Positions 46,228 to 60,956 of a DNA stretch of 64,000 bases are shown in pieces. The notes under the pieces are model-generated. The model saw only the letters and a list, made by a program, of their open reading frames with translations, searched no databases and was not told where the DNA came from. Source of the DNA: a virus. The stretch spans positions 7,125 to 71,124 of the IMG/VR virus record IMGVR_UViG_3300009537_000004; one strand, 5' to 3'. Position 1 is the first letter of the stretch, and each line of letters begins with the position of its first letter. The position numbers and the translations under genes were made by a program.

Positions 46228-48147
46228 ATGGCTGACAAGTCATTACGACAAAGATTGAAGCGGCTGTTCAGTACGAACGTAATCGTGCGAAATGTCGGAG
46301 GAACTAAACTTAAGGTTGCCGACACAAGCCGAATGCAGGCTTTCACTAATAGAAACCTGTATGACAGATATAGCAGAGTTCATCACGCTGGCTATGGGCA
46401 ATACTCGACAGTTCGTGGTCAGTATACCCTTGCGTATCAGGGTGCCCGACTCCAGCTATTCCGTGACTATGACATCATGGATAATGACGCAATCATTGCG
46501 TCAGCACTGGATATTTACGCAGACGAAACAACCGTTCAGTCCGAGGCAGGGGAATCTCTCATTATTGAGAGTTCGGATGAAAACATTCGTGAGATTTTAC
46601 ACAACCTCTTCTACGACATTTTGAACGTTGAGTTCAACCTGTGGCCGTGGATTAGAAACATGTGCAAATACGGAGACTTTTATCTGTTTTTGGAAATTAC
46701 TGATGATTATGGCATCATCAACGTGTTGCCACTTTCGGTTTATGACACCATTCGTGTCGAGGGCGAAAATCCTGAGAATCCGTATGAAGTTTATTTCCAA
46801 ACAATGGGAACACAGATGCCAAAGGATAGGTTTGAAAACTTCGAGATAGCTCACTTTCGCCTTCTTTCCGACGCAAACTGGCTTCCGTATGGTAAGGCTA
46901 TGATTGAACCTGCACGCCGAACATGGAAGCAGGTGCAACTGATGGAAGACGCGATGCTTGTGCATCGCCTTGTACGAGCACCTGATCGCCGAGTTTTTCG
47001 TGTGGACATTGGCAATCTTCCTCCACAAGAAGTTGACACTTTCATGGAGAAGTTGATTACTAAGGTGCAGAAAACGCCTCTCATTGACCCCCAAACGGGC
47101 GACTATAACCTCAAATTCAACCTCATGAACATCATTGAGGACTTCTATCTACCGGTTAGAGGTGGTGACAGCGGAGCTCAAATCGAAACTTTGAATGGAT
47201 TGAGTTTCAATGCTACCGAAGATGTGGAATATTTGCGCAACAAGATGATCGGCGCCCTCAAGATTCCGCGAGCATTCCTTGGATATGAGGAACAGCTGAG
47301 TGGAAAGGCAACTTTGGCAGCTGAAGATGTACGTTTTGCGCGCACAATTGAGAGAATTCAGAGAATTGTCATCTCAGAGCTAACAAAAATTGCTATTATT
47401 CATCTTTATTCACAGGGATACACCAACGAAGATCTTGTAAACTTCTCCCTGAACCTCACAAATCCGTCAACAATCTATGAACAAGAGAAAATTGCGCTCT
47501 GGCAGGAAAAAGTTCGTCTTGCCGGAGATATACAGCAGCTAAATCTCATTGGAAGTGACTGGATTTATGACCATGTGTTTGGAATGAGCTCTGGTGAAGT
47601 TGACGACCAGCGCATTGAAGTGGTTAAAGACAAGAAACGCTTGTTTAGGCTACAATCTATTGAGCAGGGACAAGATCCCGCAGCAGCCGGCGGCACGCAA
47701 ACGCCGGGAGCAGAGTCAATGGCGAGCGAACCAGGCTCTCCTGGAGCTCCTGGCGGCGGAAAGCCCGATTTGAGCGGATTGCCAACCGCAGAAGAGGGCG
47801 TTGACTTCTCTGACCTTCCAGAATTGGAAAACCCTGACCTAATCTCAGACGACCGCGCTGTAGGACGCCCGCCTGAGGGCAAAAAGTTGGGAACTGACCG
47901 ACACCCGTACGGCCGCGACCCATTTGGGTCTAAAGAAAACAGAAAAGCTCTTCATCCTGATCCCGAAGGGAAAGTAAAGGTGACGCGAAAGGGACTGTCA
48001 CGCGAAAGTTTGGAGTTGCGTCATTTCATGAAGCAATTGAAGGAAAGATTTCCTGTTAAAAGCAAGGATGACAGAAAAATGCTTTCTGAAGGAAACGGAC
48101 AAAGAAGTTATTTGGACGAGGAAGTTCTCATTGACGAGACTGATTAG
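46228..48147 (+). CDS. gp20: Portal protein (T4 gp20-like)
   Basis: 'LMEDAML..R..RAP.RRVF.VDIGNLP', 'EDFYLPVRGG', 'LAAEDVRFARTI.RIQ'. Confidence 0.93.
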   Translation: MADKSLRQRLKRLFSTNVIVRNVGGTKLKVADTSRMQAFTNRNLYDRYSRVHHAGYGQYSTVRGQYTLAYQGARLQLFRDYDIMDNDAIIASALDIYADETTVQSEAGESLIIESSDENIREILHNLFYDILNVEFNLWPWIRNMCKYGDFYLFLEITDDYGIINVLPLSVYDTIRVEGENPENPYEVYFQTMGTQMPKDRFENFEIAHFRLLSDANWLPYGKAMIEPARRTWKQVQLMEDAMLVHRLVRAPDRRVFRVDIGNLPPQEVDTFMEKLITKVQKTPLIDPQTGDYNLKFNLMNIIEDFYLPVRGGDSGAQIETLNGLSFNATEDVEYLRNKMIGALKIPRAFLGYEEQLSGKATLAAEDVRFARTIERIQRIVISELTKIAIIHLYSQGYTNEDLVNFSLNLTNPSTIYEQEKIALWQEKVRLAGDIQQLNLIGSDWIYDHVFGMSSGEVDDQRIEVVKDKKRLFRLQSIEQGQDPAAAGGTQTPGAESMASEPGSPGAPGGGKPDLSGLPTAEEGVDFSDLPELENPDLISDDRAVGRPPEGKKLGTDRHPYGRDPFGSKENRKALHPDPEGKVKVTRKGLSRESLELRHFMKQLKERFPVKSKDDRKMLSEGNGQRSYLDEEVLIDETD

Positions 48148-51490: not shown

Positions 51491-51501
51491 GAGGATAATT
51501 G

Positions 51502-52086
51502 ATGGCACTACTAACTGATTATACACCGCTAAAATATAGCCGGCAGATGATTACAGAGGCTCTCCATAAGGGCGGGCCGCTTGTGCTGAAAAATGTATTA
51601 CTACAGAGAGCAAACGCAAAAAACCAAAATGGAAGAGTGTATCCTCTCCCAATTCTTATGCGAGAGGGTGAGAGGTATCAGGAGTTCATTAAGGAGCGAC
51701 GAGCACTCGGCGAACTTGATCATCCCGAAAGTCCCGTCGTCAACCTTAAGAATGTCTCTCACAACGTTACCGAAATGTGGTTCAATGGTGAAGATTTGGT
51801 GGGTAACCTTGAAGTTTTATCCACTCCATCAGGCAACATTCTCAAAGAGCTGTTGAAGAATGACATTAAGCTGGGAATCTCAAGCAGAGGGCTAGGGTCA
51901 GTAAAAGAGTTGGACGAATCAACCGTTCAAGTTGAAGATGATTTTTCTCTCATTTGTTTTGACATAGTTTCAAATCCCTCCACGCAAGGTGCGTTCATTA
52001 ATGAATCAGTTATTCCTGGGTCTCAGTGTGGACCATGGTGTAGAGTTGATAATTTGATCCATGAGTTTTTGACGGAGATGCGCTAA
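51502..52086 (+). CDS. gp21: Prohead protease (T4 gp21-like)
   Basis: 'N.NGRVYP', 'ALGELDHP', 'LGISSRGLGS', 'DIVSNPS'. Confidence 0.93.
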   Translation: MALLTDYTPLKYSRQMITEALHKGGPLVLKNVLLQRANAKNQNGRVYPLPILMREGERYQEFIKERRALGELDHPESPVVNLKNVSHNVTEMWFNGEDLVGNLEVLSTPSGNILKELLKNDIKLGISSRGLGSVKELDESTVQVEDDFSLICFDIVSNPSTQGAFINESVIPGSQCGPWCRVDNLIHEFLTEMR

Positions 52087-52852: not shown

Positions 52853-54040
52853 ATGACAGCAGTCAGCAAAGCACAACAGCAAGCGGCGGGAATCGCATTG
52901 GCAGCTAAGAGAGCTGGCAAGAGCCCGAAGGCAGGAACTCCGTCAGCACAGATGTCAAAGATGCCTGAGAAGGAGTTGAGAAAGTTTGCCAAGACTTCTA
53001 CTAAGGGACTGCCAGCAAAGAAAGAAGCTGTTGTCGCGGAAAAATCACCAAAGGGCTGGGAAAAAACGGTCAAGGGAATGAAAAAGCATAAAGACATTAC
53101 CAATCCCTGGGCGTTGGCACATTGGATGAAGAAGAAAGGATACAAGTCTCATGAACAAGTTGAGAACAAACTCCGTGAATATATTCGTGAAGTTATTCGA
53201 GAAACTTTAGAAGAAAAGTATAAGGTTCGTGGAAAGCTTGGCACCGGAACCCGATTCAAAAACTTGGTCAAGTCGCTGGCAGCTCGAGAGGGAATAGAAT
53301 TGACTGAAGATGATTATTGTGAGTTAGAAGAACAGAAGGTCCGTAATCCAGCAGCTTTGGCAGCATGGATCGGCCGTAAGAAATACGGGAAGCAAAAGTA
53401 TCAGAAGATGGCAGCTAAAGGTAAGAAAGAGAGTGTTAAGGATTACGGCGCCAGAGTTAAAGAAACGGGCACGCCAGAAGGAGCAAAAAAGGGGTGGCAA
53501 AGCAGACTTAAAAGAGTCGCTCGTAAAGCATTTGATTATGAAGGTGAAACTGGTAGTACTGGTGAATTTCTAAGAAATTATGCGCGCGCACTTGTCCGCT
53601 CACCATATGATGTTGCAAAAGGAATAGGTAGAATGAGAAAGGGCAAACAATTTATTGATCCTTATAATCCAAAGGAAGGAATTAACGAAGATGCTTTAAA
53701 AGACCTTATGTTTGGAGGAATGAAGACGTGGTGGAAATTTGATCCAGAAGACGTGATGCGTTTTATTTATTGGACAAAGCGCCAAGTCCCACCAGCAAAT
53801 GATGCAAAAAGAAAAGAAGCCTGGAAAGCACTCATTCCTCAACTGCAAAAAAAGCATCCCGCACCAGCAAACGTTTACAAAAAGTTGATGGGAGAAGTTG
53901 CAAAATTGCAAGAGAAGTGGGGCAAGGCAGAGGGGGTTGAAGAAGGTTATCCAAAAAAGCACAAGGGCCGAAGAAAGATTGGTTCAAGAAAAAGAAGGGC
54001 GATAAAAAAGCGCCGTCTTGCGCGTAAACAAGGGAGATAA
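52853..54040 (+). CDS. Basic multi-module protein: DUF3008-like N-terminus, protamine-like C-terminus
   Basis: 'SKAQQ.AAG.AL.AKR...M.EKELR.FA.T..KGLP.K' resembles DUF3008; AGGAG RBS. Confidence 0.75.
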   Translation: MTAVSKAQQQAAGIALAAKRAGKSPKAGTPSAQMSKMPEKELRKFAKTSTKGLPAKKEAVVAEKSPKGWEKTVKGMKKHKDITNPWALAHWMKKKGYKSHEQVENKLREYIREVIRETLEEKYKVRGKLGTGTRFKNLVKSLAAREGIELTEDDYCELEEQKVRNPAALAAWIGRKKYGKQKYQKMAAKGKKESVKDYGARVKETGTPEGAKKGWQSRLKRVARKAFDYEGETGSTGEFLRNYARALVRSPYDVAKGIGRMRKGKQFIDPYNPKEGINEDALKDLMFGGMKTWWKFDPEDVMRFIYWTKRQVPPANDAKRKEAWKALIPQLQKKHPAPANVYKKLMGEVAKLQEKWGKAEGVEEGYPKKHKGRRKIGSRKRRAIKKRRLARKQGR

Positions 54041-54043
54041 GAT

Positions 54044-55441
54044 ATGCCGCAGAATCCGATGATGGGAAAGGGCCCACTTCGTCACTCCAACAAGGTGAGA
54101 ACCGCACACGATTCGGTCGCATCTAACGATGTTGACGATTTTGATCGTGGAGGCTACCCTGGGAAGCGTCATATTGATGTGGAAGCAAATCCCGTCAAAG
54201 TGATTGCTGAATTTTCCAGATTAGGAGAAGCACTTCGTCGCACCGGTACATTCAGAGAAGTAGCAGAACAAATTGCACGCATCTCTGAGATGGCCGAAAA
54301 CACGGTCATGCAGGAAGCCGGCGATTGGTTTGACGCACAGACAATCAAGCGCAACATGAAAGAGCTAGGTAGCTACTCCAAGGACTTCGGCAAGCTGGCC
54401 GAAGAGATGGACGCGATGCAGCAACGCGCAACTGCTCTCTACGACGACATGGGCAACGTGCTCTCCCGCTACTTCGAGCTCGCTGGCCCAGCAGCTGAAG
54501 AAGCTGAGGAAGCGCCGTTCGGCGGCAAGAAGGCCCCGAAGTTCGACGGTCCTGGCGGCAACCCCGCTGACGACCGCGGTCGCTCAGCTTGGGACGCACG
54601 CAGCAGCATTGACGCCAACGACGCCGACTTCGGTGGCAAGCAGGCACCCGCCTTCGACGGCCCCGGTGGCAACCCAGCAGACGACGCCGGACGCAAGGCG
54701 TGGGACGTGCGCGACGGCGAAGAGGACGACAGTGACGACGAACTGGAAGAAGGTGGACCTGGTAGTGGCCGCCGAGACAACGGGTTTAAGAAACGATATG
54801 GAGTGGATAAAACTACTGTAGCTAAGAGAAAGCTTGACCCGAAAAGTAGAGGTCGCATTCCAGGAGGAATGACCAAGAGTGCTGCTAGGTCGCACTTGCG
54901 CAGAGCCGGAGAAAATGTTGGTGCCAACGAATCAGCAGTCGCGCCCAACTCCTACAACGCTCGCCGTGCATTGAGACTTCCGCGAGCACAGCAAAGAATT
55001 CAAGGCGGATTCACTCGTGACCAGGCAAAAGACATTCTTCGCAAGGAAGGAGCTAAGACCGTATCGGAGGCAAAGAAATGTCTCTACAAAGAAATTATGA
55101 GATTGGCAGAATCAAATCAACTGACGGAAGCTCAAACTAAAGTTGTCAATGTTGATACTTTTTTGAGTATACTGAAGAATAAAAAGTTCCGTATTGGATT
55201 TGGTAGTCACAGCTATTCTACAAATGATCCGCCGTCATTTACAGATGCCAAAATAACCAAAGGAAAAATCATACAACTTAAAAAAGATCCTCAAGGTTTG
55301 TATGACCACCCAAGGGGAACATGGGAATATTTAGGAAATAATAAAATCAGAATGGTCTTAGAAGGAGAAATCAATTTTCCTAAAGACGGCAGAAAGAAAA
55401 TGCTAAGAGAAGCTGACCCTTTCGTAAAGAGGCCGAGCTGA
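54044..55441 (+). CDS. Multi-module head-region protein with helical core and internal repeats
   Basis: Core 'DWFD..TIKRNMKEL...ALYDDMG.VL.RYF'; 37-aa repeat twice (period 111 nt). Confidence 0.75.
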   Translation: MPQNPMMGKGPLRHSNKVRTAHDSVASNDVDDFDRGGYPGKRHIDVEANPVKVIAEFSRLGEALRRTGTFREVAEQIARISEMAENTVMQEAGDWFDAQTIKRNMKELGSYSKDFGKLAEEMDAMQQRATALYDDMGNVLSRYFELAGPAAEEAEEAPFGGKKAPKFDGPGGNPADDRGRSAWDARSSIDANDADFGGKQAPAFDGPGGNPADDAGRKAWDVRDGEEDDSDDELEEGGPGSGRRDNGFKKRYGVDKTTVAKRKLDPKSRGRIPGGMTKSAARSHLRRAGENVGANESAVAPNSYNARRALRLPRAQQRIQGGFTRDQAKDILRKEGAKTVSEAKKCLYKEIMRLAESNQLTEAQTKVVNVDTFLSILKNKKFRIGFGSHSYSTNDPPSFTDAKITKGKIIQLKKDPQGLYDHPRGTWEYLGNNKIRMVLEGEINFPKDGRKKMLREADPFVKRPS

Positions 55442-55617
55442 GGAAAATAGTTCAGACTCGTTCGGCCGGAAAAGTGGATGGACGTAAGCTAGATTTGTTC
55501 ACGGCTGGGGCGATACTAGCGGTTTTGGATGGATTGAAAAACCCATATAACAGAGAAAAGTATCTTAGGATGCCTGTTCAACAAATGGCAACGGTTGCCT
55601 TCAAATTGGTACATTAA
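55417..55617 (+). CDS. -1-frame extension of 54044..55441 (66 codons)
   Basis: Frame opens at C_CCT_TTC, encodes PFRKEAELRKIVQTRSAGKVDGRKLDLFTAGAILAVLD...AFKLVH, and stops in TAATG coupled to the next gene. Confidence 0.6.
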   Translation, partial: PFRKEAELRKIVQTRSAGKVDGRKLDLFTAGAILAVLDGLKNPYNREKYLRMPVQQMATVAFKLVH

Positions 55618-55964
55618 TGAATGTAAAGAAAAAAGTCAACGGAGCAATAAACGGAACTTTGGATAAAGTTTACAAACTGATTGACAAGGCTCCGACAACA
55701 AATTTGCGTATCATCGTCACTCTTTTACTTGTCATCGGCACCGCTATAAGATATTGGGCTGCGGGCGGCGGCCCGACCGCATGGTCTCCTGATTGGGATT
55801 GGTTGATGTTCTTGGCAGCAATGTCAGGGCTAGATGTTGTCCAGCACTGGGCAAAACGCAAAACAGCATGGAGTCCAACAGAGCAAGCTAATGCAGCCGT
55901 CATCCGTAACGGCCACGAAGAAGTAGAATCAACAATTAGTGCGGGAGAAGAGGAGGTCGGTTAA
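55617..55964 (+). CDS. Small membrane protein (holin-like candidate)
   Basis: Hydrophobic segments 'IIVTLLLVIGTAI' and 'WLMFLAAMSGL'. Confidence 0.55.
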   Translation: MNVKKKVNGAINGTLDKVYKLIDKAPTTNLRIIVTLLLVIGTAIRYWAAGGGPTAWSPDWDWLMFLAAMSGLDVVQHWAKRKTAWSPTEQANAAVIRNGHEEVESTISAGEEEVG

Positions 55965-56419: not shown

Positions 56420-56668
56420 ATGTATATTGAGGTAAAAGGTTCCGATGATGCAGCATTTCAACGAGCGGTGTCTGAATTCAAGCGCCGCGTCAAGAAGGCA
56501 GGCATATTTGAAGACCTTAAAAAGCATGAGTATCATGTTAAGCCGTCGCTTCGTAAGAAATTGAAACGGCTTGACGCACTAAAAAGAAAACGGAGAGAAG
56601 AGAATGAGGCCATACGAAGAGCAAAAAATCCGCGAAATGATCCGCGAGGAAGTGAAACGGGTTCTTAG
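56420..56668 (+). CDS. rpsU: Phage-encoded ribosomal protein bS21
   Basis: 'I.VK.....F.RA...FKR.VKKAGI..DLKKHEY..KPS..KK.KR..A.KRKRR' is the bS21 pattern. Confidence 0.8.
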   Translation: MYIEVKGSDDAAFQRAVSEFKRRVKKAGIFEDLKKHEYHVKPSLRKKLKRLDALKRKRREENEAIRRAKNPRNDPRGSETGS

Positions 56669-56837
56669 AGAAGGCGGAATTACACTTAAAGAAGGCCGTG
56701 GAAAAAAGGGAAGCAGAGTTCGCACTCCTCATGGAACAGGAGTTATCCTGAATACTAATGGTGAGCAAGCTCGCGTCCAATTGGACAGCGGAGCAGTCAT
56801 AAAAGTTCATAGGGACAGAGCAACTGTCATTGGATAA
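56604..56837 (+). CDS. Small SH3/KOW-like protein with 'KIREMIREEV.RVLRE' leader
   Basis: 'G.RV.TPHG.G.IL...G..A.V.LD.G..IKV'; overlaps the bS21 tail by 65 nt. Confidence 0.6.
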   Translation: MRPYEEQKIREMIREEVKRVLREGGITLKEGRGKKGSRVRTPHGTGVILNTNGEQARVQLDSGAVIKVHRDRATVIG

Positions 56838-56917: not shown

Positions 56918-57018
56918 GCGTAGTAAATACATCTTATGTAAGATGTTATGCTTAGCATTTTTACAACAACACTATATTAGGGACTTCTCAATAGTCTCTT
57001 AACCCTTTGAGGAAAGAT

Positions 57019-58383
57019 ATGGCAAAGAGAAAGAGCACAAATCCTCTTTTGCGTGAAGCTATTGCTGACGCCAAGGCAGTCCGTGAGACTGCTCTCGCTA
57101 ATGCAAAGGCTGCGCTGGAAGAGGCATTCACGCCGCATCTGACTTCCATGCTTTCGGCACGCCTCCGCGAAGAGGATGATTATGGCGAAGTGGAAGAAAT
57201 AAATGACCCAGTTCCAGCAGCTGATGGTCATGGTTCAGATGAAGGTGGAGAGACTGACGTAGACGCAGTAGAGAAGTCTTCGTTTACAGAAGCAGCAGTT
57301 GATGTAGACGCTGGAGTTCAGGACGATTCTAAACTTGATTCGTCAGACATTGCAACTGGTCCTCAGAACAAATTCGGCGACACGCCATCTAAGGAGCCAG
57401 CAGCAAGCACCAAGTCCAGTTCAGACATTGATAACGAGGATAAGCTCGGAATGAATGAAGCTGACGAGTTTGGATTTGATGATGAAGAAGATGGTGAGGA
57501 AGATGTTCTGTCCGCCGCTGATGAATTTCCTGGCGACGACGACGCAGTAGACCTAGGCGACGAAGAAGAGCCAGTAGATCTCGAAGGTGAAGGTGATATG
57601 GATTTTGGTGGTGATGAAGAAGAAGATGACCTTGACCTGGAAGCAATAATTCGTGAGCTTGAAGCTGATATGGTTGACGACGAGGAAGGTGAAGAATTCG
57701 AAGCACCTGTCGGCGAAGCAGAAGACGAATTTGGTATTGAAGATGATGACGAAGAGGTGGTAGGCGAAGCCGATCTTCCTTCAGCCGCTGACGGACACGG
57801 AAGCGATGAAGGTGGTGAGACTGATGCAGACGCCATCGAAAAGTCAACCTTCACACAGGGAACGGAATCCCAGACGGGTCCAATCTCTGAGCAGGAAGAG
57901 GACGACGATGAAGTCGATCTCGAAGAAATCCTCCGCGAAATCGAAGATGAAGAGAACGCAGAAGAACTCGAAACTGAGAATGCGGGGCTAAAGTCGGAGC
58001 TGAAAGAGTACCGGGACGCTGTAAGATTCCTGCGTAGTAAGCTCAATGAGGTTAATCTCCTCAATGCAAAACTGCTCTATACAAACAAGTTGTTCAAGAA
58101 CTACAATATGGATGGCCGTCAAAAGCTTCGTGTTGTAGAGAACTTCGATAGAGCAACAACTGTCCGCGAAGCGAAGCTTGTTTTCGCAACGCTCGCGGAA
58201 GCCTTCAAGGGTAAGCCCGTAACGCGCAAGCGTTCAATTACCGAAGGCCTAGCTTCCAAGAGAACTGGTAGCACCAAGCCAACGCGACCGGTTGACGAGT
58301 CTTCTAGCGAAGATACTCCAACCATTCTTGCAGAAGGCACGCAACTGGCAGCTCGTTTGAAGAAGCTAGCAGGAATCAGATAA
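57019..58383 (+). CDS. Prohead scaffold/core protein (acidic)
   Basis: 'LLREAIADAKAVRETA.ANAK.ALEEAF', very acidic middle, 'L.EVNLLNAKLLY.NKLF', C-terminal 'RLKKLAGI'; immediately precedes the MCP. Confidence 0.85.
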   Translation: MAKRKSTNPLLREAIADAKAVRETALANAKAALEEAFTPHLTSMLSARLREEDDYGEVEEINDPVPAADGHGSDEGGETDVDAVEKSSFTEAAVDVDAGVQDDSKLDSSDIATGPQNKFGDTPSKEPAASTKSSSDIDNEDKLGMNEADEFGFDDEEDGEEDVLSAADEFPGDDDAVDLGDEEEPVDLEGEGDMDFGGDEEEDDLDLEAIIRELEADMVDDEEGEEFEAPVGEAEDEFGIEDDDEEVVGEADLPSAADGHGSDEGGETDADAIEKSTFTQGTESQTGPISEQEEDDDEVDLEEILREIEDEENAEELETENAGLKSELKEYRDAVRFLRSKLNEVNLLNAKLLYTNKLFKNYNMDGRQKLRVVENFDRATTVREAKLVFATLAEAFKGKPVTRKRSITEGLASKRTGSTKPTRPVDESSSEDTPTILAEGTQLAARLKKLAGIR

Positions 58384-58417: not shown

Positions 58418-60148
58418 ATGAGTGGTATTAATCTTCAAAAGTTGATGGCTGACGCAAGAACGCCTCAGGCGGCGCTCTTGGCACAGACCCGTGGCTTGGT
58501 ACGCAAGTGGGAACCAACCGGACTCCTAGAGGGTCTGGATCGCGAATCTTCGCGTCACGGCATGGCCGTTCTCCTAGAGAACCAGGCCCGTCAGCTCATT
58601 GACGAAAGCACGACCACTAACCCATCAACCGCTGGTGTCGCAATTGGCACCGCTGGTTCTGGTGAGCAGTGGGCGGGCGTGGCACTTCCGTTGGTGCGTA
58701 AGGTCTTTGGTGAGATCGCCGCAAAGGAATTCGTCAGCATTCAGCCGATGAACCTTCCTTCTGGACTGATCTTCTTCATGGACTTCAAGTACGGCACCGA
58801 CAAGCCTCCACGCAATGTTGGTGACTCAGTATTCGGTGCATCCGAACTGGGTTCATCGCAGCGTGACCAAGTTTTCGCAACCGCATCAGTCGTCCCAGCA
58901 GGCGGCCTATACGGCGACGGAAAGTGGGGTTATTCTATCAATGACCAAGAGCTTTTGGTTCTTGGAATAGCTGGTTCCGGTTCTCTAGCAGCAACTGGTT
59001 CAGCACCTTTTGGTGGCTACCTAACTTCAGGAACGGTCAATTTCAACGAAACCATTACTGGTCTTTCCGGATGGACTAACACCTACGGAGTTTATCAGGT
59101 TTCGATGAGCGCTCTAACGCGCCCAGACCTCGAAGGCATTCGTGCTTTCGTTCCTGGAACTGGTTCTGTTGCAGCAGGAACATTCGTAGAACTCACTGGC
59201 TACTTGCCTGAGTATACGCATGTCAGCTCTTCTGGTGGAGTTGACTGGCTGTCATTCGTCGCTCTTCGTGGCTCTCAACTACTTTCGAGCGTCGTTTATC
59301 ACCGTCAGCCAACCGACTCAACTCGTGGCGACTTCGAGGACTCTCGTTCCGAAATCGTTGATGCAACCGCAACTGCACAGGCCTCTCTCGGTATTCCTGA
59401 GATTGACCTTGAGTTGAAGAGCATTCCAATCGTAGCAAAGACCCGTAAGTTGAAGGCTGTTTGGACGCCTGAGCTTGCACAGGATCTTAACGCTTACCAC
59501 AGCATTGACGCTGAGGCTGAGCTAACGGCAATGTTGAGTGAGTATATCTCGCTTGAGATTGACCTTGAGATTCTGGACATGCTTATCATCAACGCCCAGA
59601 CGACCGATTATTGGTCAACGCAGATTGGACGTGTTTGGAGCTCAGTCGCGGCCAACTTCGTTGACGATCCAAACCTTGCAGGACAGGCTTGGACGAACCA
59701 GACTTGGTTTGAGACTTTTGGACAGAAGCTCCAGAAGGTCAGCAACAAGATTCACCAGCTCACCCTTCGTGGTGGTGCTAACTTTGTCGTCTGCTCACCT
59801 GACGTAGCAACGATTCTTGAGACCATCCCTGGTTTCACCGTTGAGACTGACGGCGACAAGATGAAGTTTGCAGCTGGCGTAACTCAAATCGGTGCGTTCC
59901 AAAACAGATACACCGTCTACAAGAACCCTTACATGCTGACGAACGTCGTGCTGTTGGGTTACAAGGGAGCTAACTTCCTTGAGACCGGTGCTGTTTACGC
60001 TCCATATGTTCCACTGGTCATGACGCCATTAGTGTACGATCCTGACAACTTCACGCCAAGACGTGGTGTTCTCACTCGTTACGCTAAGAAGATCGTCCGA
60101 CCTGAATTCTACGGTAAGATTATCGTTGAAGGTCTAACCCGACTATAA
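58418..60148 (+). CDS. gp23: Major capsid protein (T4 gp23-like)
   Basis: 'LLENQ', 'QPMNLPSGL.F', 'AKTRKLKA.WTPELAQDL.AYH.IDAEAEL', 'YAPY.PL', 'TRYA'. Confidence 0.96.
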   Translation: MSGINLQKLMADARTPQAALLAQTRGLVRKWEPTGLLEGLDRESSRHGMAVLLENQARQLIDESTTTNPSTAGVAIGTAGSGEQWAGVALPLVRKVFGEIAAKEFVSIQPMNLPSGLIFFMDFKYGTDKPPRNVGDSVFGASELGSSQRDQVFATASVVPAGGLYGDGKWGYSINDQELLVLGIAGSGSLAATGSAPFGGYLTSGTVNFNETITGLSGWTNTYGVYQVSMSALTRPDLEGIRAFVPGTGSVAAGTFVELTGYLPEYTHVSSSGGVDWLSFVALRGSQLLSSVVYHRQPTDSTRGDFEDSRSEIVDATATAQASLGIPEIDLELKSIPIVAKTRKLKAVWTPELAQDLNAYHSIDAEAELTAMLSEYISLEIDLEILDMLIINAQTTDYWSTQIGRVWSSVAANFVDDPNLAGQAWTNQTWFETFGQKLQKVSNKIHQLTLRGGANFVVCSPDVATILETIPGFTVETDGDKMKFAAGVTQIGAFQNRYTVYKNPYMLTNVVLLGYKGANFLETGAVYAPYVPLVMTPLVYDPDNFTPRRGVLTRYAKKIVRPEFYGKIIVEGLTRL

Positions 60149-60171: not shown

Positions 60172-60198
60172 TGGGGAGTTCTTTGAGCTCCCCATTTT
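60172..60198 (+). terminator. Intrinsic terminator after the MCP gene
   Basis: TGGGGAGTTC-TTT-GAGCTCCCCA followed by TTTT. Confidence 0.8.
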
Positions 60199-60269: not shown

Positions 60270-60956
60270 ATGTATATTTACGAAGTCCGTAACAAGGTTG
60301 ATGGAAAGCACTACATCGGTCAAACATCAAAGGAAGACCCAAAGAAACGATGGAATGAGCATCGCTGCTATCTAAGAAAAGGCAAGCACAGGAATAAACA
60401 CCTTCAACACGCTTGGAACAAGCATGGAGAACAAAACTTTGAGTTCAATATATTGAAGGAATACTCCTCTCTCAGTAAATTGAACAAAGCTGAGAGAAAG
60501 ATTGTCAAAGAAAGGGGTGACTATAATATTGAACCGGGCGGAGGAGTATATCCCATATCACAAGAGACTCGCATTAAAATTTCCAGAGCCAAACGGAAAA
60601 AGCCGTACCCGAAAGTAGTAGGGCCAGATGGAAAGCTGCATAAAATCGAACCTCCGCTAGAAGAGTTTTGTAGAAAACATGGAGTATGGTCGTCAAGTTT
60701 TAGAGCAATGCTAGCGGGCCGAATCAATTATGCTAATGGATGGCACCTTCCTCATATTAAGATAGACATGAGCGAAGCAAAGTCATTAGCTCAAACAAGA
60801 ACCTGGAAATCAAATATGGTTATCGGACCAGACGGGAAAGAATATAAGGTTACGAATCGCAGAAAGTTTATTAGAGATCACAATCTTAATGTTCGTCACT
60901 TTACAAAAGTTCTTCAAGGAAAATATCAGCAACACAAAGGTTGGCATCTCAAGTAA
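60270..60956 (+). mobile_element. Free-standing GIY-YIG homing endonuclease
   Basis: 'YIY...N...GKHYIGQT...RW..H...H.N..LQ.AWNK.G..NFEF'; two C-terminal 'GPDGK...F.R.H.......GW' repeats. Confidence 0.82.

What the first reader, a model, noticed from the sequence alone, without database searches (positions are those of the whole stretch)
55414..55617. Candidate -1 programmed ribosomal frameshift appending an extra module
Seen: ORF 54044 reads ...GAC CCT TTC, giving the heptamer C_CCT_TTC (55417-23) in the correct X_XXY_YYZ phase. A 7-nt spacer (GTAAAGA) follows, then a stem: GGCCGAGC (55431-38) pairs with GTTCGGCC (55460-67; one G-U), extendable by GAG/CTC. The 0 frame stops at 55439-41. The -1 frame is closed by TGA immediately before the heptamer, runs 66 codons with no early ATG, fills an otherwise empty 175-nt gap, and ends in TAATG coupled to the next gene. 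A putative cleavage site (MLRE|A) sits just upstream. An A_AAG tetramer in the spacer is an alternative shift site. Established: heptamer + 5-9 nt spacer + structure is the canonical -1 frameshift layout. Inference: this sets a sub-stoichiometric amount of one cargo module.
Basis: partly seen in the sequence, partly recalled or inferred. Interest (0 to 1): 0.75.

Follow-up and report, generated by a model that had tools for sequence, protein, structure and literature searches.

The report
Likely ribosomal frameshift in phage head gene
A head-module gene of an uncultured T4-like phage is broken by one base exactly where a proven slippery sequence and a strong RNA hairpin sit, so some ribosomes probably slip back and add a 64-residue domain that related phages encode in frame, but a plain one-base deletion cannot be excluded.

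Summary
New evidence:

- **One protein in relatives.** The 66-codon -1 frame encodes a real folded domain (profile E 6.5e-30; AlphaFold2 pLDDT 95). 15 of 38 homologues carry it fused in frame to the same protein.
- **No start codon for the whole domain.** The only candidate, GTG 55474, would remove helix 1 and strand 1, and its Shine-Dalgarno pairing is at background level.
- **The break sits on a signal.** It lies on C_CCT_TTC, which Sharma et al. 2014 class as a high-level -1 motif in E. coli. A -18 kcal/mol hairpin follows 7 nt downstream (z -3.45). Of 51 in-phase heptamers in the window, this is the only one with such a hairpin. The joint chance is about 2e-4.
- **Not conserved.** The four relatives with DNA lack both heptamer and hairpin, three of them fused in frame. 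No close relative, no reads and no conservation could be obtained. Two other family contigs carry frame breaks, neither at a checked slip site.

Verdict: -1 frameshifting giving a 465-aa and a 524-aa form is the best explanation (about 0.6). A recent deletion or assembly error is the main rival (about 0.3).

This scan has already reported similar frameshifts in T4-like head-cargo genes on other DNA. Here it is a new member of a known kind.

The parts
54044..55441 (+). 0-frame gene (465 aa). It belongs to an unnamed family of T4-like head-module proteins. It has a conserved N-terminal domain, acidic/Gly repeats, a helical region and an 86-aa insert seen only here.
   Evidence: no Pfam or PHROG hit
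55400..55411 (+). MLRE, with the putative prohead-protease cut after Glu (55411|55412). It lies 4 codons before the slip site.
   Evidence: Motif read. Homologous LRE|K, LNE|G and LAE|V occur in P0004, P0003/P0005 and P0014. [LIVM]xE is enriched before the module. S77 protease lies at 51499-52086. Cleavage itself is an inference.
55417..55423 (+). Slippery heptamer C_CCT_TTC in X_XXY_YYZ phase.
   Evidence: C_CC.U_UU.C is described as giving 'high level frameshifting' in E. coli in PMC4066793 (passages).
55424..55430 (+). 7-nt spacer GTAAAGA. It contains an in-phase A_AAG tetramer (55426-55429), a possible second slip site lying only 1 nt from the stem.
   Evidence: tetramer ranking A_AA.G >> U_UU.C in PMC4066793
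55431..55467 (+). Stimulatory hairpin: 8 bp, a bulge and 3 bp, with a 14-nt loop. It encloses the 0-frame stop.
   Evidence: Absent at the homologous place in L001, L024, L034 and L030.
55439..55441 (+). 0-frame stop codon TGA.
55417..55617 (+). -1 frame: 66 codons plus TAA, encoding the C-terminal module. After the slip, 64 new residues (RKEAELRKIV...FKLVH) follow residue F460, giving a 524-aa product.
   Evidence: Profile of 15 fused relatives, E 6.5e-30 over residues 3-65. AlphaFold2 pLDDT 95.2.
55474..55476 (+). GTG, the only canonical start in the -1 frame before the module ends. It is the start proposed by the independent-initiation rival.
   Evidence: SD pairing is -2.8 kcal/mol against a gene median of -5.6. 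It corresponds to residue 20, inside the beta-hairpin of the model.
55615..55619 (+). TAATG: the stop of the -1 frame overlaps the start of the next gene.
   Evidence: the same overlap in L001, L024 and L030
55617..55964 (+). Downstream gene (115 aa, conserved neighbour, hydrophobic segment). It has a weak SD of its own (-2.8) and so probably depends on coupling to the module frame.
51499..52086 (+). Prohead protease (Peptidase_S77, T4 gp21 type). This is context for the cleavage motif.
   Evidence: PF03420, 3.1e-24; phrog_207, 1e-47

Best explanation
Proposed mechanism: the gene is decoded in two ways.

1. Most ribosomes read the 0 frame and stop at TGA 55439, giving a 465-aa protein that ends ...MLREADPFVKRPS.
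2. A fraction pause on the hairpin 55431-55467, with tRNA-Pro on CCU in the P site and tRNA-Phe on UUC in the A site. Both tRNAs slip back one base to CCC and UUU.
3. These ribosomes then continue in the -1 frame and make a 524-aa protein: residues 1-460 plus 64 residues of a compact helical module.
4. The T4-type prohead protease probably cuts after MLRE. This would release the module as a free peptide of about 68 aa inside the head.
5. Ribosomes finishing the -1 frame probably also feed the next gene through the TAATG overlap.

**Shown:** the sequence signals, their rarity, the homology and fold of the -1 product, and the lack of a start codon for it.

**Inferred:** that slipping occurs, its rate, the cleavage and the coupling.

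The arrangement probably arose from an in-frame ancestor by loss of one base. Whether it was then selected or is merely tolerated is open.
For: 1. **Same protein in relatives.** 15 of 38 non-self homologues carry the module fused in frame, as do loci L001/L002, L024 and L034. With the slip, the junction ...EADPF-RKEAELRKIV aligns without a gap to P0004 ...EKDPTLKEAALRKIV.
2. **The -1 product is intact.** The profile E-value is 6.5e-30 and the match starts 3 residues after the frame opens. The AF2 model has pLDDT 95.2, with helix 1 at residues 2-14.
3. **No start for the whole module.** GTG 55474 is residue 20. Its SD pairing of -2.8 kcal/mol is near the background median of -2.2 for internal start-like codons and well short of the gene median of -5.6. 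All 150 best family representatives contain helix 1. 89 of the 90 small homologues keep at least the end of helix 1 (two of them shortened or with an internal gap); only one, P0110, starts inside the module.
4. **A heptamer in the 8-codon overlap.** In-phase heptamers run at 0.25% per codon, so the chance of one here is about 2%. A 1-nt deletion in a homopolymer run would create one in 21 of 737 cases, or 2.8%.
5. **Hairpin at a 7-nt spacing.** It folds at -18 kcal/mol with z -3.45, within the top 0.86% of windows. It is unique among the 51 heptamers. It is built from minor codons: GCC 15% (used twice), CTG 12%, TCG 11% and CGT 16%. Relatives encoding the same peptide reach only -5.3 to -9.0.
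6. **Motif efficiency.** C_CC.U_UU.C is named as giving high-level frameshifting, and H_HH.U_UU.Y is among the most efficient motifs in E. coli (PMC4066793, passages).
7. **Clean contig.** The contig is 97% coding, and this is the only empty gap of its kind. That argues against error-prone sequencing.
Against: - **The signal is not conserved.** Every module-bearing relative seen is in frame or broken elsewhere, and none has the heptamer or hairpin.
- **No close relative exists to test.** No protein of 255-814 aa other than self shares the insert region. Searches with 8-residue peptide patterns found only one IMG/VR relative, at 55% identity.
- **Breaks do occur in this family.** L033 has a -1 break in the conserved N-domain, with no slippery motif by my reading of the sequence. 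L030 has a break in a variable region that was not checked for motifs.
- **The source is limited.** The sequence is a single metagenome-assembled contig (IMG/VR, linear, 38% complete). No sequencing run was listed, so an assembly indel was not tested.
- **The module is dispensable in principle.** About half of the relatives lack it, so a truncating deletion would be tolerated.
- **Efficiency data come from E. coli.** The host is unknown.
- **The joint-chance figure has limits.** It assumes independence and uses thresholds fixed after seeing the site.
Confidence: 0.6

Rival explanations
1. A plain one-base deletion, either a recent real mutation or an assembly error, in a gene that was fused in frame. 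The heptamer and hairpin are coincidences. The gene then simply makes the truncated 465-aa protein. If the cause is an assembly error, it makes an ordinary in-frame protein of about 524 aa.
For: - All fused relatives lack any signal.
- The family shows two other frame breaks (L030 and L033). By my reading L033 has no slippery motif; L030 was not checked.
- The break lies in short C3/T3/A3 runs, where restoring one base gives the same protein as the slip.
- The module is absent from about half of the family, so its loss is tolerable.
- This is a single contig and the reads were not checked.
- The intact state of the module fits a very recent event as well as it fits selection.
Against: - It needs three coincidences. 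The break must fall within 8 codons at the very start of a 66-codon module. It must create an in-phase heptamer of the high-efficiency class (2.8% for run deletions). And a top-1% hairpin must sit 7 nt downstream, made from minor codons and absent in relatives. Together these come to roughly 2.5e-4 or less.
- The contig shows no other sign of indel errors.
- Even if the origin was a deletion, such a cassette would be expected to cause slipping.
Confidence: 0.3
2. A split gene. The module is made on its own from GTG 55474 as a 47-aa protein, like the many stand-alone versions of this module in other phages.
For: - 90 homologues of 36-137 aa were returned, many of them 64-75-aa proteins with their own ATG.
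- GTG 55474 is the first canonical start in the frame.
- 23% of the called gene starts have SD pairing as weak as this one.
Against: - The stand-alone forms start before helix 1. GTG 55474 would delete helix 1 and strand 1 of a fold predicted at pLDDT 95.
- The 19 codons before the GTG still match the family profile.
- SD pairing is -2.8 kcal/mol, close to the background median of -2.2; 43% of internal start-like codons pair as well or better.
- The site abuts the 3' arm of the hairpin.
Confidence: 0.05

Closest known systems
Phage lambda gpG/gpGT tail assembly chaperone -1 frameshift (Levin, Hendrix & Casjens 1993; Xu, Hendrix & Duda 2004, as described and listed in PMC5009743, passages seen)
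   Same: A -1 slip on an X_XXY_YYZ heptamer close to the end of a phage morphogenesis gene. The 0-frame stop follows a few codons later. A minority product carries an extra C-terminal domain, and the ratio of the two forms matters.
   Different: The lambda signal is conserved across tailed phages and lies between the tail tube and tape-measure genes. Here the gene lies in the head module between protease and scaffold, and the signal was not seen in the four module-bearing relatives whose DNA could be read, whose genes are fused in frame or broken elsewhere. The heptamer differs (G_GGA_AAG is recalled for lambda, not seen in a call).
Capsid-gene frameshifts: T7 gene 10A/10B and the Lactobacillus phage A2 major head protein (Garcia et al. 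2004). I saw the T7 passages and the A2 reference title in PMC5009743.
   Same: A -1 frameshift gives a head protein a C-terminal extension, producing a second virion component from one gene.
   Different: Those cases affect the major capsid protein. Here it is an accessory, probably internal, head-module protein of an unnamed family. The details of the A2 signal were not seen by me.
E. coli dnaX tau/gamma -1 frameshift cassette
   Same: A bacterial-type cassette of heptamer, short spacer and simple stem-loop rather than a pseudoknot.
   Different: In dnaX the slip truncates the protein, whereas here it extends it. dnaX also has an upstream SD-like stimulator (recalled), and none is evident here. 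Loci L001 and L024 may resemble dnaX more closely: an in-phase A_AAA_AAR at the same junction, with a -1 stop after 7 codons.
'Corrective' or 'savior-indel' frameshifting (Atkins et al. 2016, PMC5009743; abstract and introduction passages)
   Same: An indel relative to in-frame relatives that is compensated in translation at a shift-prone site.
   Different: In that class the unshifted product is usually useless. Here the short form resembles natural module-less family members, so both forms may be functional.
T4 internal proteins and other prohead-protease-processed head cargo (IPI-III, Alt; recalled knowledge)
   Same: The gene lies next to a gp21-type protease, between the portal and major capsid genes. 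A Leu-x-Glu motif sits just before the appended module.
   Different: There is no sequence similarity to T4 internal proteins. Packaging and cleavage are untested. No frameshift is reported for T4 internal proteins in the two literature searches I ran.

Membership tests
Canonical -1 programmed ribosomal frameshift cassette | X_XXY_YYZ heptamer in the 0-frame phase, allowing both tRNAs to re-pair in the -1 frame | tested here: met
   C_CCT_TTC at 55417-55423. The motif class is rated high-level in E. coli (PMC4066793).
Canonical -1 programmed ribosomal frameshift cassette | Stable RNA structure starting 5-9 nt downstream of the heptamer | tested here: met
   7-nt spacer. Hairpin of -18 kcal/mol, z -3.45, top 0.86% of windows, unique among 51 heptamers.
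Canonical -1 programmed ribosomal frameshift cassette | The -1 frame encodes a functional extension that cannot be made by independent initiation | tested here: met
   Profile E 6.5e-30. pLDDT 95.2. No ATG/GTG/TTG before codon 20. Weak SD at the GTG.
Canonical -1 programmed ribosomal frameshift cassette | Frame offset and signal conserved in diverged relatives | tested here: not met
   15 of 15 module-bearing homologous proteins and 3 of 4 module-bearing loci are in frame. L030 is broken elsewhere. No heptamer or hairpin is present at the junction. No close relative is available.
Canonical -1 programmed ribosomal frameshift cassette | The trans-frame protein is observed | not testable with these tools
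   No runs were listed. This needs a reporter assay or mass spectrometry.
Prohead-protease-processed head cargo of T4-like phages | Gene lies in the head module with a gp21-type (S77) protease | tested here: met
   Portal 46228-48147, protease 51499-52086 and gp23-type MCP 58418-60148.
Prohead-protease-processed head cargo of T4-like phages | Glu-terminated cleavage motif ([LI]xE) at the module boundary | tested here: met
   MLRE|A lies 4 codons before the slip site. Equivalent motifs occur in P0003, P0004, P0005, P0014 and P0034. [LIVM]xE occurs before 86 of 146 modules against 404 of 1,381 control windows (the motif was widened after a first look, and the sequences are related).
Prohead-protease-processed head cargo of T4-like phages | The protein is packaged in the capsid and cleaved | not testable with these tools
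   Needs virion proteomics.
Lambda G/GT-type tail assembly chaperone | Gene pair lies between the major tail/tube gene and the tape-measure gene | tested here: not met
   The gene lies between the prohead protease and the scaffold/MCP genes.

The most novel reading that the evidence does not exclude
The junction in front of this 65-aa module may be a recoding hotspot used in both directions. In the window, a -1 slip adds the module. In the L001/L024 lineage, the only in-phase heptamer of the whole gene (A_AAA_AAA or A_AAA_AAG) sits at the same junction, and a slip there would remove the module, as in dnaX. On this reading, T4-like phages set the dose of a protease-released capsid peptide by frameshifting. 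They would also set the expression of the TAATG-coupled downstream membrane-protein gene the same way. Together with the other cases already noted by this scan, frameshift-dosed head cargo would be a general and so far undescribed feature of T4-like phages.
Probability: 0.12. Interest if true: 0.65.

Novelty: new member of a known kind. Interest (0 to 1): 0.45.

Why it matters
If real, this extends programmed frameshifting in tailed phages from tail chaperones and major capsid proteins to accessory head-module proteins. These are probably internal cargo of T4-like phages.

It would also show how such a signal can arise within a single lineage from an in-frame ancestor: one base lost, then a slippery site and a hairpin.

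The work brings to light a very large, unnamed 65-aa domain family with a confidently predicted fold and no solved relative. It has 3,496 representative clusters, mostly at C-termini or as tiny stand-alone proteins. This may be a common capsid cargo or assembly module.

In practice, gene callers truncate this protein and leave a 175-nt 'empty' gap. Similar sites are probably missed routinely in viral metagenomes.

Tried and rejected
**Reads.** The look-up of sequencing runs listed no run, so none was listed and read laying was not used. An assembly indel is therefore untested.

I used the search for related loci instead.

**Close relatives of the contig.** Peptide-pattern scans of IMG/VR found only one relative, at 55% identity, and none for the module. 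The insert region (residues 355-465) matched only itself among proteins of 255-814 aa. The cultured-phage collection gave two weak N-domain matches and none for the module.

**Other decoding explanations.**
- Read-through or an alternative code is rejected. The 0 frame meets TAG three codons after the TGA.
- Transcriptional slippage is rejected. No run is longer than 3-4 nt at the site.
- An intrinsic terminator is rejected. No T-run follows the stem, and the scan lists nothing at 55431-55467.
- No Rfam family matches. The only hit was a chance snoRNA match below threshold elsewhere.

**Function of the module.** No Pfam or PHROG family matched. PDB sequence matches were no better than E 0.09. 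Foldseek against PDB gave nothing at E 0.001 or better. VIA-align wide gave a best Z of 4.6, which is uninformative. BFVD gave only uncharacterised phage proteins.

**Literature.**
- 'CCCUUUC' + frameshifting and 'CCCTTTC' + frameshift + phage gave nothing relevant.
- 'ribosomal frameshift' + 'internal head protein' gave 0 papers.
- The capsid-targeting-sequence search gave 1 paper, on phage P1, which I did not read.
- The supplementary tables of PMC4066793, which hold the per-heptamer efficiencies, were not open to me. I therefore quote only the text's wording.

**Pseudoknot.** I looked by eye for pairing between the loop and downstream sequence and saw nothing convincing. This was not computed.
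Full report
**Context.** The window is part of a 71-kb linear IMG/VR virus contig. All genes lie on the + strand. The region 46-60 kb is a T4-type head module:
- portal, Portal_T4 1.4e-63, at 46228-48147
- prohead protease, Peptidase_S77 3.1e-24, at 51499-52086
- major capsid protein, Gp23 1.4e-74, at 58418-60148

The finding lies between protease and capsid genes, at the end of ORF 54044-55441. This ORF has no Pfam or PHROG family.

**Observation.**
- The 0 frame reads GAC CCT TTC GTA AAG AGG CCG AGC TGA, so C_CCT_TTC (55417-23) is in X_XXY_YYZ phase and the 0 frame stops at 55439-41.
- The -1 frame is closed by TGA at 55414-16. It is then open for 66 codons and ends in TAA 55615-17, which overlaps ATG 55617.
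- The first canonical start in that frame is GTG 55474.
- The stem 55431-38/55460-67, extended by GAG/CTC, is the minimum-free-energy fold. Its energy is -18.0 kcal/mol and it makes up 69% of the ensemble. z is -3.45, with 1 of 200 shuffles as good.

**Is it more than chance?**
- In 65 called genes (20,543 codons) there are 51 in-phase heptamers with Y = A or T, or 0.25% per codon. The site at 55417 has by far the strongest downstream hairpin. It is the only one of the 51 at -15 kcal/mol or better; the next best is -14.5.
- Only 0.86% of 9,137 sampled 46-nt windows fold at -18 or better.
- The frame change must happen within the 8 codons between the -1-frame TGA and the 0-frame TGA. The chance of an in-phase heptamer there is about 2%, and with the hairpin about 2e-4. 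This is my multiplication and assumes independence.
- If the break arose by deletion in a homopolymer run of 4 or more, an in-phase heptamer results in 21 of 737 runs, or 2.8%. The joint figure is therefore similar.
- The stem is built largely from minor codons: GCC 15% (used twice), CTG 12%, TCG 11%, CGT 16%.

**What the two frames are.** The key new result is that they are one protein in relatives.
- A search of 5.8 billion proteins returned 38 non-self homologues.
- 15 of them end in a conserved segment of about 65 aa (consensus KKEAAxRxIV...K[IV]xG..VDxFTA..IV.VLD.LNP.NK.KFL.MPI..MA..AFKL), fused in frame.
- A profile built from these 15 tails hits the window's -1 frame at E 6.5e-30 over residues 3-65 of 66.
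- With a slip on the heptamer, the junction ...GEINFPKDGRKKMLREADPF-RKEAELRKIV aligns without a gap to the closest such relative, P0004...GEIKFPKDGKMLREKDPTLKEAALRKIV.
- AlphaFold2, given an alignment of 49 sequences, folds the 66 residues at pLDDT 95.2 and pTM 0.81. The model runs helix 2-14, beta-hairpin 18-25, then three helices.
- The fusion product would be 460 + 64 = 524 aa.

**Independent initiation.** The module also exists very widely on its own.
- 90 proteins of 36-137 aa were found, many of them 64-75 aa with their own ATG.
- A full-library profile search found 3,496 representative clusters at E 0.001 or better. Among the best 150, 125 carry the module at the extreme C-terminus and 78 are 140 aa or shorter. 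All 150 include helix 1, with the profile start at position 17 or earlier.
- In the window no ATG, GTG or TTG precedes helix 1.
- GTG 55474 corresponds to residue 20, in the middle of the beta-hairpin.
- Its SD pairing of -2.8 kcal/mol is at background level. The median for internal start-like codons is -2.2, and 43% pair as well or better. Real gene starts have a median of -5.6.

I therefore give the split-gene reading about 5%.

**Relatives and conservation.** This is the weak point.
- I obtained DNA for 64 related loci.
- The module is present in L001/L002, L024 and L034, always in frame, and in L030, where it lies in another frame.
- The L030 break lies more than 100 nt upstream, in a variable region, and runs in the +1 direction.
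- L033 has a -1 break inside the conserved N-domain, without any slippery motif.
- So plain frame breaks do occur in contigs of this family.
- At the homologous junction the relatives fold weakly, at -5.3 to -9.0 kcal/mol, and have no C_CCT_TTC.
- No closer relative exists in what I could search. The 111-aa region with the lineage-specific 86-aa insert matched only itself.
- I do not treat it as fatal. It shows that the two frames belong together. It also shows that hairpin and heptamer are lineage-specific additions on a peptide that relatives encode without them.
- It does remove the usual proof by conservation.

**Sequence quality.**
- The contig is 97% coding. Only three stretches over 150 nt lack a called gene, and this is the only one that stays empty. 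There are many intact ORFs of 800-1,269 aa.
- That argues against an error-prone assembly.
- No sequencing run was listed, so the reads were not inspected.

**Motif efficiency.**
- In Sharma et al. [quoted passage not shown]
- H_HH.U_UU.Y is listed among the most efficient heptamers in E. coli.
- U_UU.C is the second-best tetramer after A_AA.G.
- The spacer holds an in-phase A_AAG, but it lies only 1 nt from the stem. A slip there would give ...PFVK-EAELR, which is the same length.
- I could not see the paper's supplementary efficiency tables.

**Likely biology (inference).**
- MLRE|A lies four codons before the slip site.
- Equivalent Leu/Ile-x-Glu motifs precede the module in P0003, P0004, P0005, P0014 and P0034.
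- Across the wider family, [LIVM]xE occurs in the 20 residues before the module in 86 of 146 cases, against 404 of 1,381 control windows. For [LI]xE the figures are 52 of 146 against 278 of 1,381. The sequences are related and the motif was widened after a first look.
- With an S77 protease encoded 3.4 kb upstream, the module is probably cut off inside the prohead.
- The slip rate would then set how many free module copies each head receives.
- The TAATG overlap between the module's stop and the next gene is kept in L001, L024, L030 and the window, which is 4 of the 5 places checked. That gene has a weak SD here. Its translation may therefore also depend on ribosomes that have slipped.
- The function of the module is unknown. 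There is no Pfam or PHROG family, no PDB relative by sequence, and no informative fold match. The only structural look-alikes are uncharacterised phage proteins, including T4-like cyanophage proteins.

**Weighing.**
- Given a frame break between two halves of one protein, the likelihood of the three signals under a plain indel is of the order of 1e-4. The signals are the position at the very start of the module, the high-efficiency heptamer and the hairpin. Under frameshifting they are expected.
- Against that stand a low prior for a lineage-specific PRF, the lack of conservation, a single unverified contig, and thresholds chosen after the fact.
- I put frameshifting that yields both forms at about 0.6. 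A silent deletion or assembly error stands at about 0.3, independent initiation at about 0.05, and other explanations take the rest.
- Even if the origin was a deletion, the cassette would be expected to produce slipping. That would place it in the 'corrective' class described by Atkins et al. 2016 (PMC5009743, passages).

**Comparison and novelty.**
- Mechanistically this is the textbook bacterial -1 cassette.
- By outcome, a C-terminal extension on a phage morphogenesis protein, it resembles lambda G/GT, T7 10A/10B and phage A2.
- It is not a member of the G/GT family, because the genomic position is wrong.
- Two literature searches found no report of frameshifting in internal head proteins.
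- Earlier notes of this scan describe similar, conserved -1 sites in head-cargo genes of other T4-like phages. I did not test those notes. They are leads, not support.
- I class the finding as a new member of a known kind, with moderate interest.

Noticed in passing
window 55417-55614; proteins P0040-P0270: The appended module belongs to a very large, unnamed domain family: 3,496 representative clusters at E 0.001 or better, with no Pfam or PHROG family. Its fold is predicted at pLDDT 95 and has no informative PDB match. It occurs as tiny stand-alone proteins, as the C-terminus of many unrelated phage proteins, in Micromonospora-type actinobacterial genomes, and in up to 11 matched stretches in one 2,097-aa protein (P0133).
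   Followed up: partly
L001 4014-4020; L024 3327-3333: In both fused relatives, the only in-phase slippery heptamer of the whole gene (A_AAA_AAA or A_AAA_AAG) sits exactly at the module junction. The -1 frame stops after 7 codons and no hairpin follows. A slip there would make a module-less short form, as in dnaX. The two loci are close relatives of each other, and the Lys-Lys codons are expected at this position, so this is weak evidence.
   Followed up: partly
window 55421-55438 (0-frame tail): The 0-frame ending ...DPFVKRPS resembles the natural C-termini of module-less family members: P0013 ...RRPFSKR, P0009 ...RRPFSQR and P0007 ...ARPFV. The short form may therefore end in a family-typical way. 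The match is too short to test.
   Followed up: no
window 55100-55370 (residues ~360-445 of the 465-aa protein): An insert of about 86 aa lies between ...RLAE and GEINFPKDG. No relative carries it, and the region matched only itself in the 5.8-billion-protein search among proteins of 255-814 aa.
   Followed up: partly
window 52853-54040 versus P0010, P0012, P0019, P0033: The basic tail EGYPKKHKGRRK...KRR of the preceding gene (which has a DUF3008 N-terminus) forms the C-terminus of several homologues of the 465-aa protein. DUF3008 heads other members (P0007, P0036, P0038, P0082, P0087). N-terminal and C-terminal modules are evidently shuffled among these head-module genes.
   Followed up: no
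L030 998-1140; L033 1325-1355: Two related metagenome contigs carry frame breaks in the same gene family. L030 has a +1-direction break in a variable region. L033 has a -1 break in the conserved N-domain without a slippery motif. These are probably plain indels.
   Followed up: partly
window 56420-56668: A phage-encoded ribosomal protein bS21 homologue (PF01165, 2e-10) lies in the head module, overlapped by ORF 56604-56837. Most genes of the contig have GGAG-type Shine-Dalgarno motifs.
   Followed up: no
window 60270-60956: A GIY-YIG homing endonuclease gene lies directly after the major capsid gene. A terminator-like hairpin precedes it at 60172-60194.
   Followed up: no
window 57007-58383: The very acidic 458-aa ORF before the capsid gene is a probable scaffold. 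Its first listed start is TTG, with no SD pairing (+1.0 kcal/mol). The true start is probably the downstream ATG (MAKRK...), which would leave about 170 nt without a called gene.
   Followed up: no
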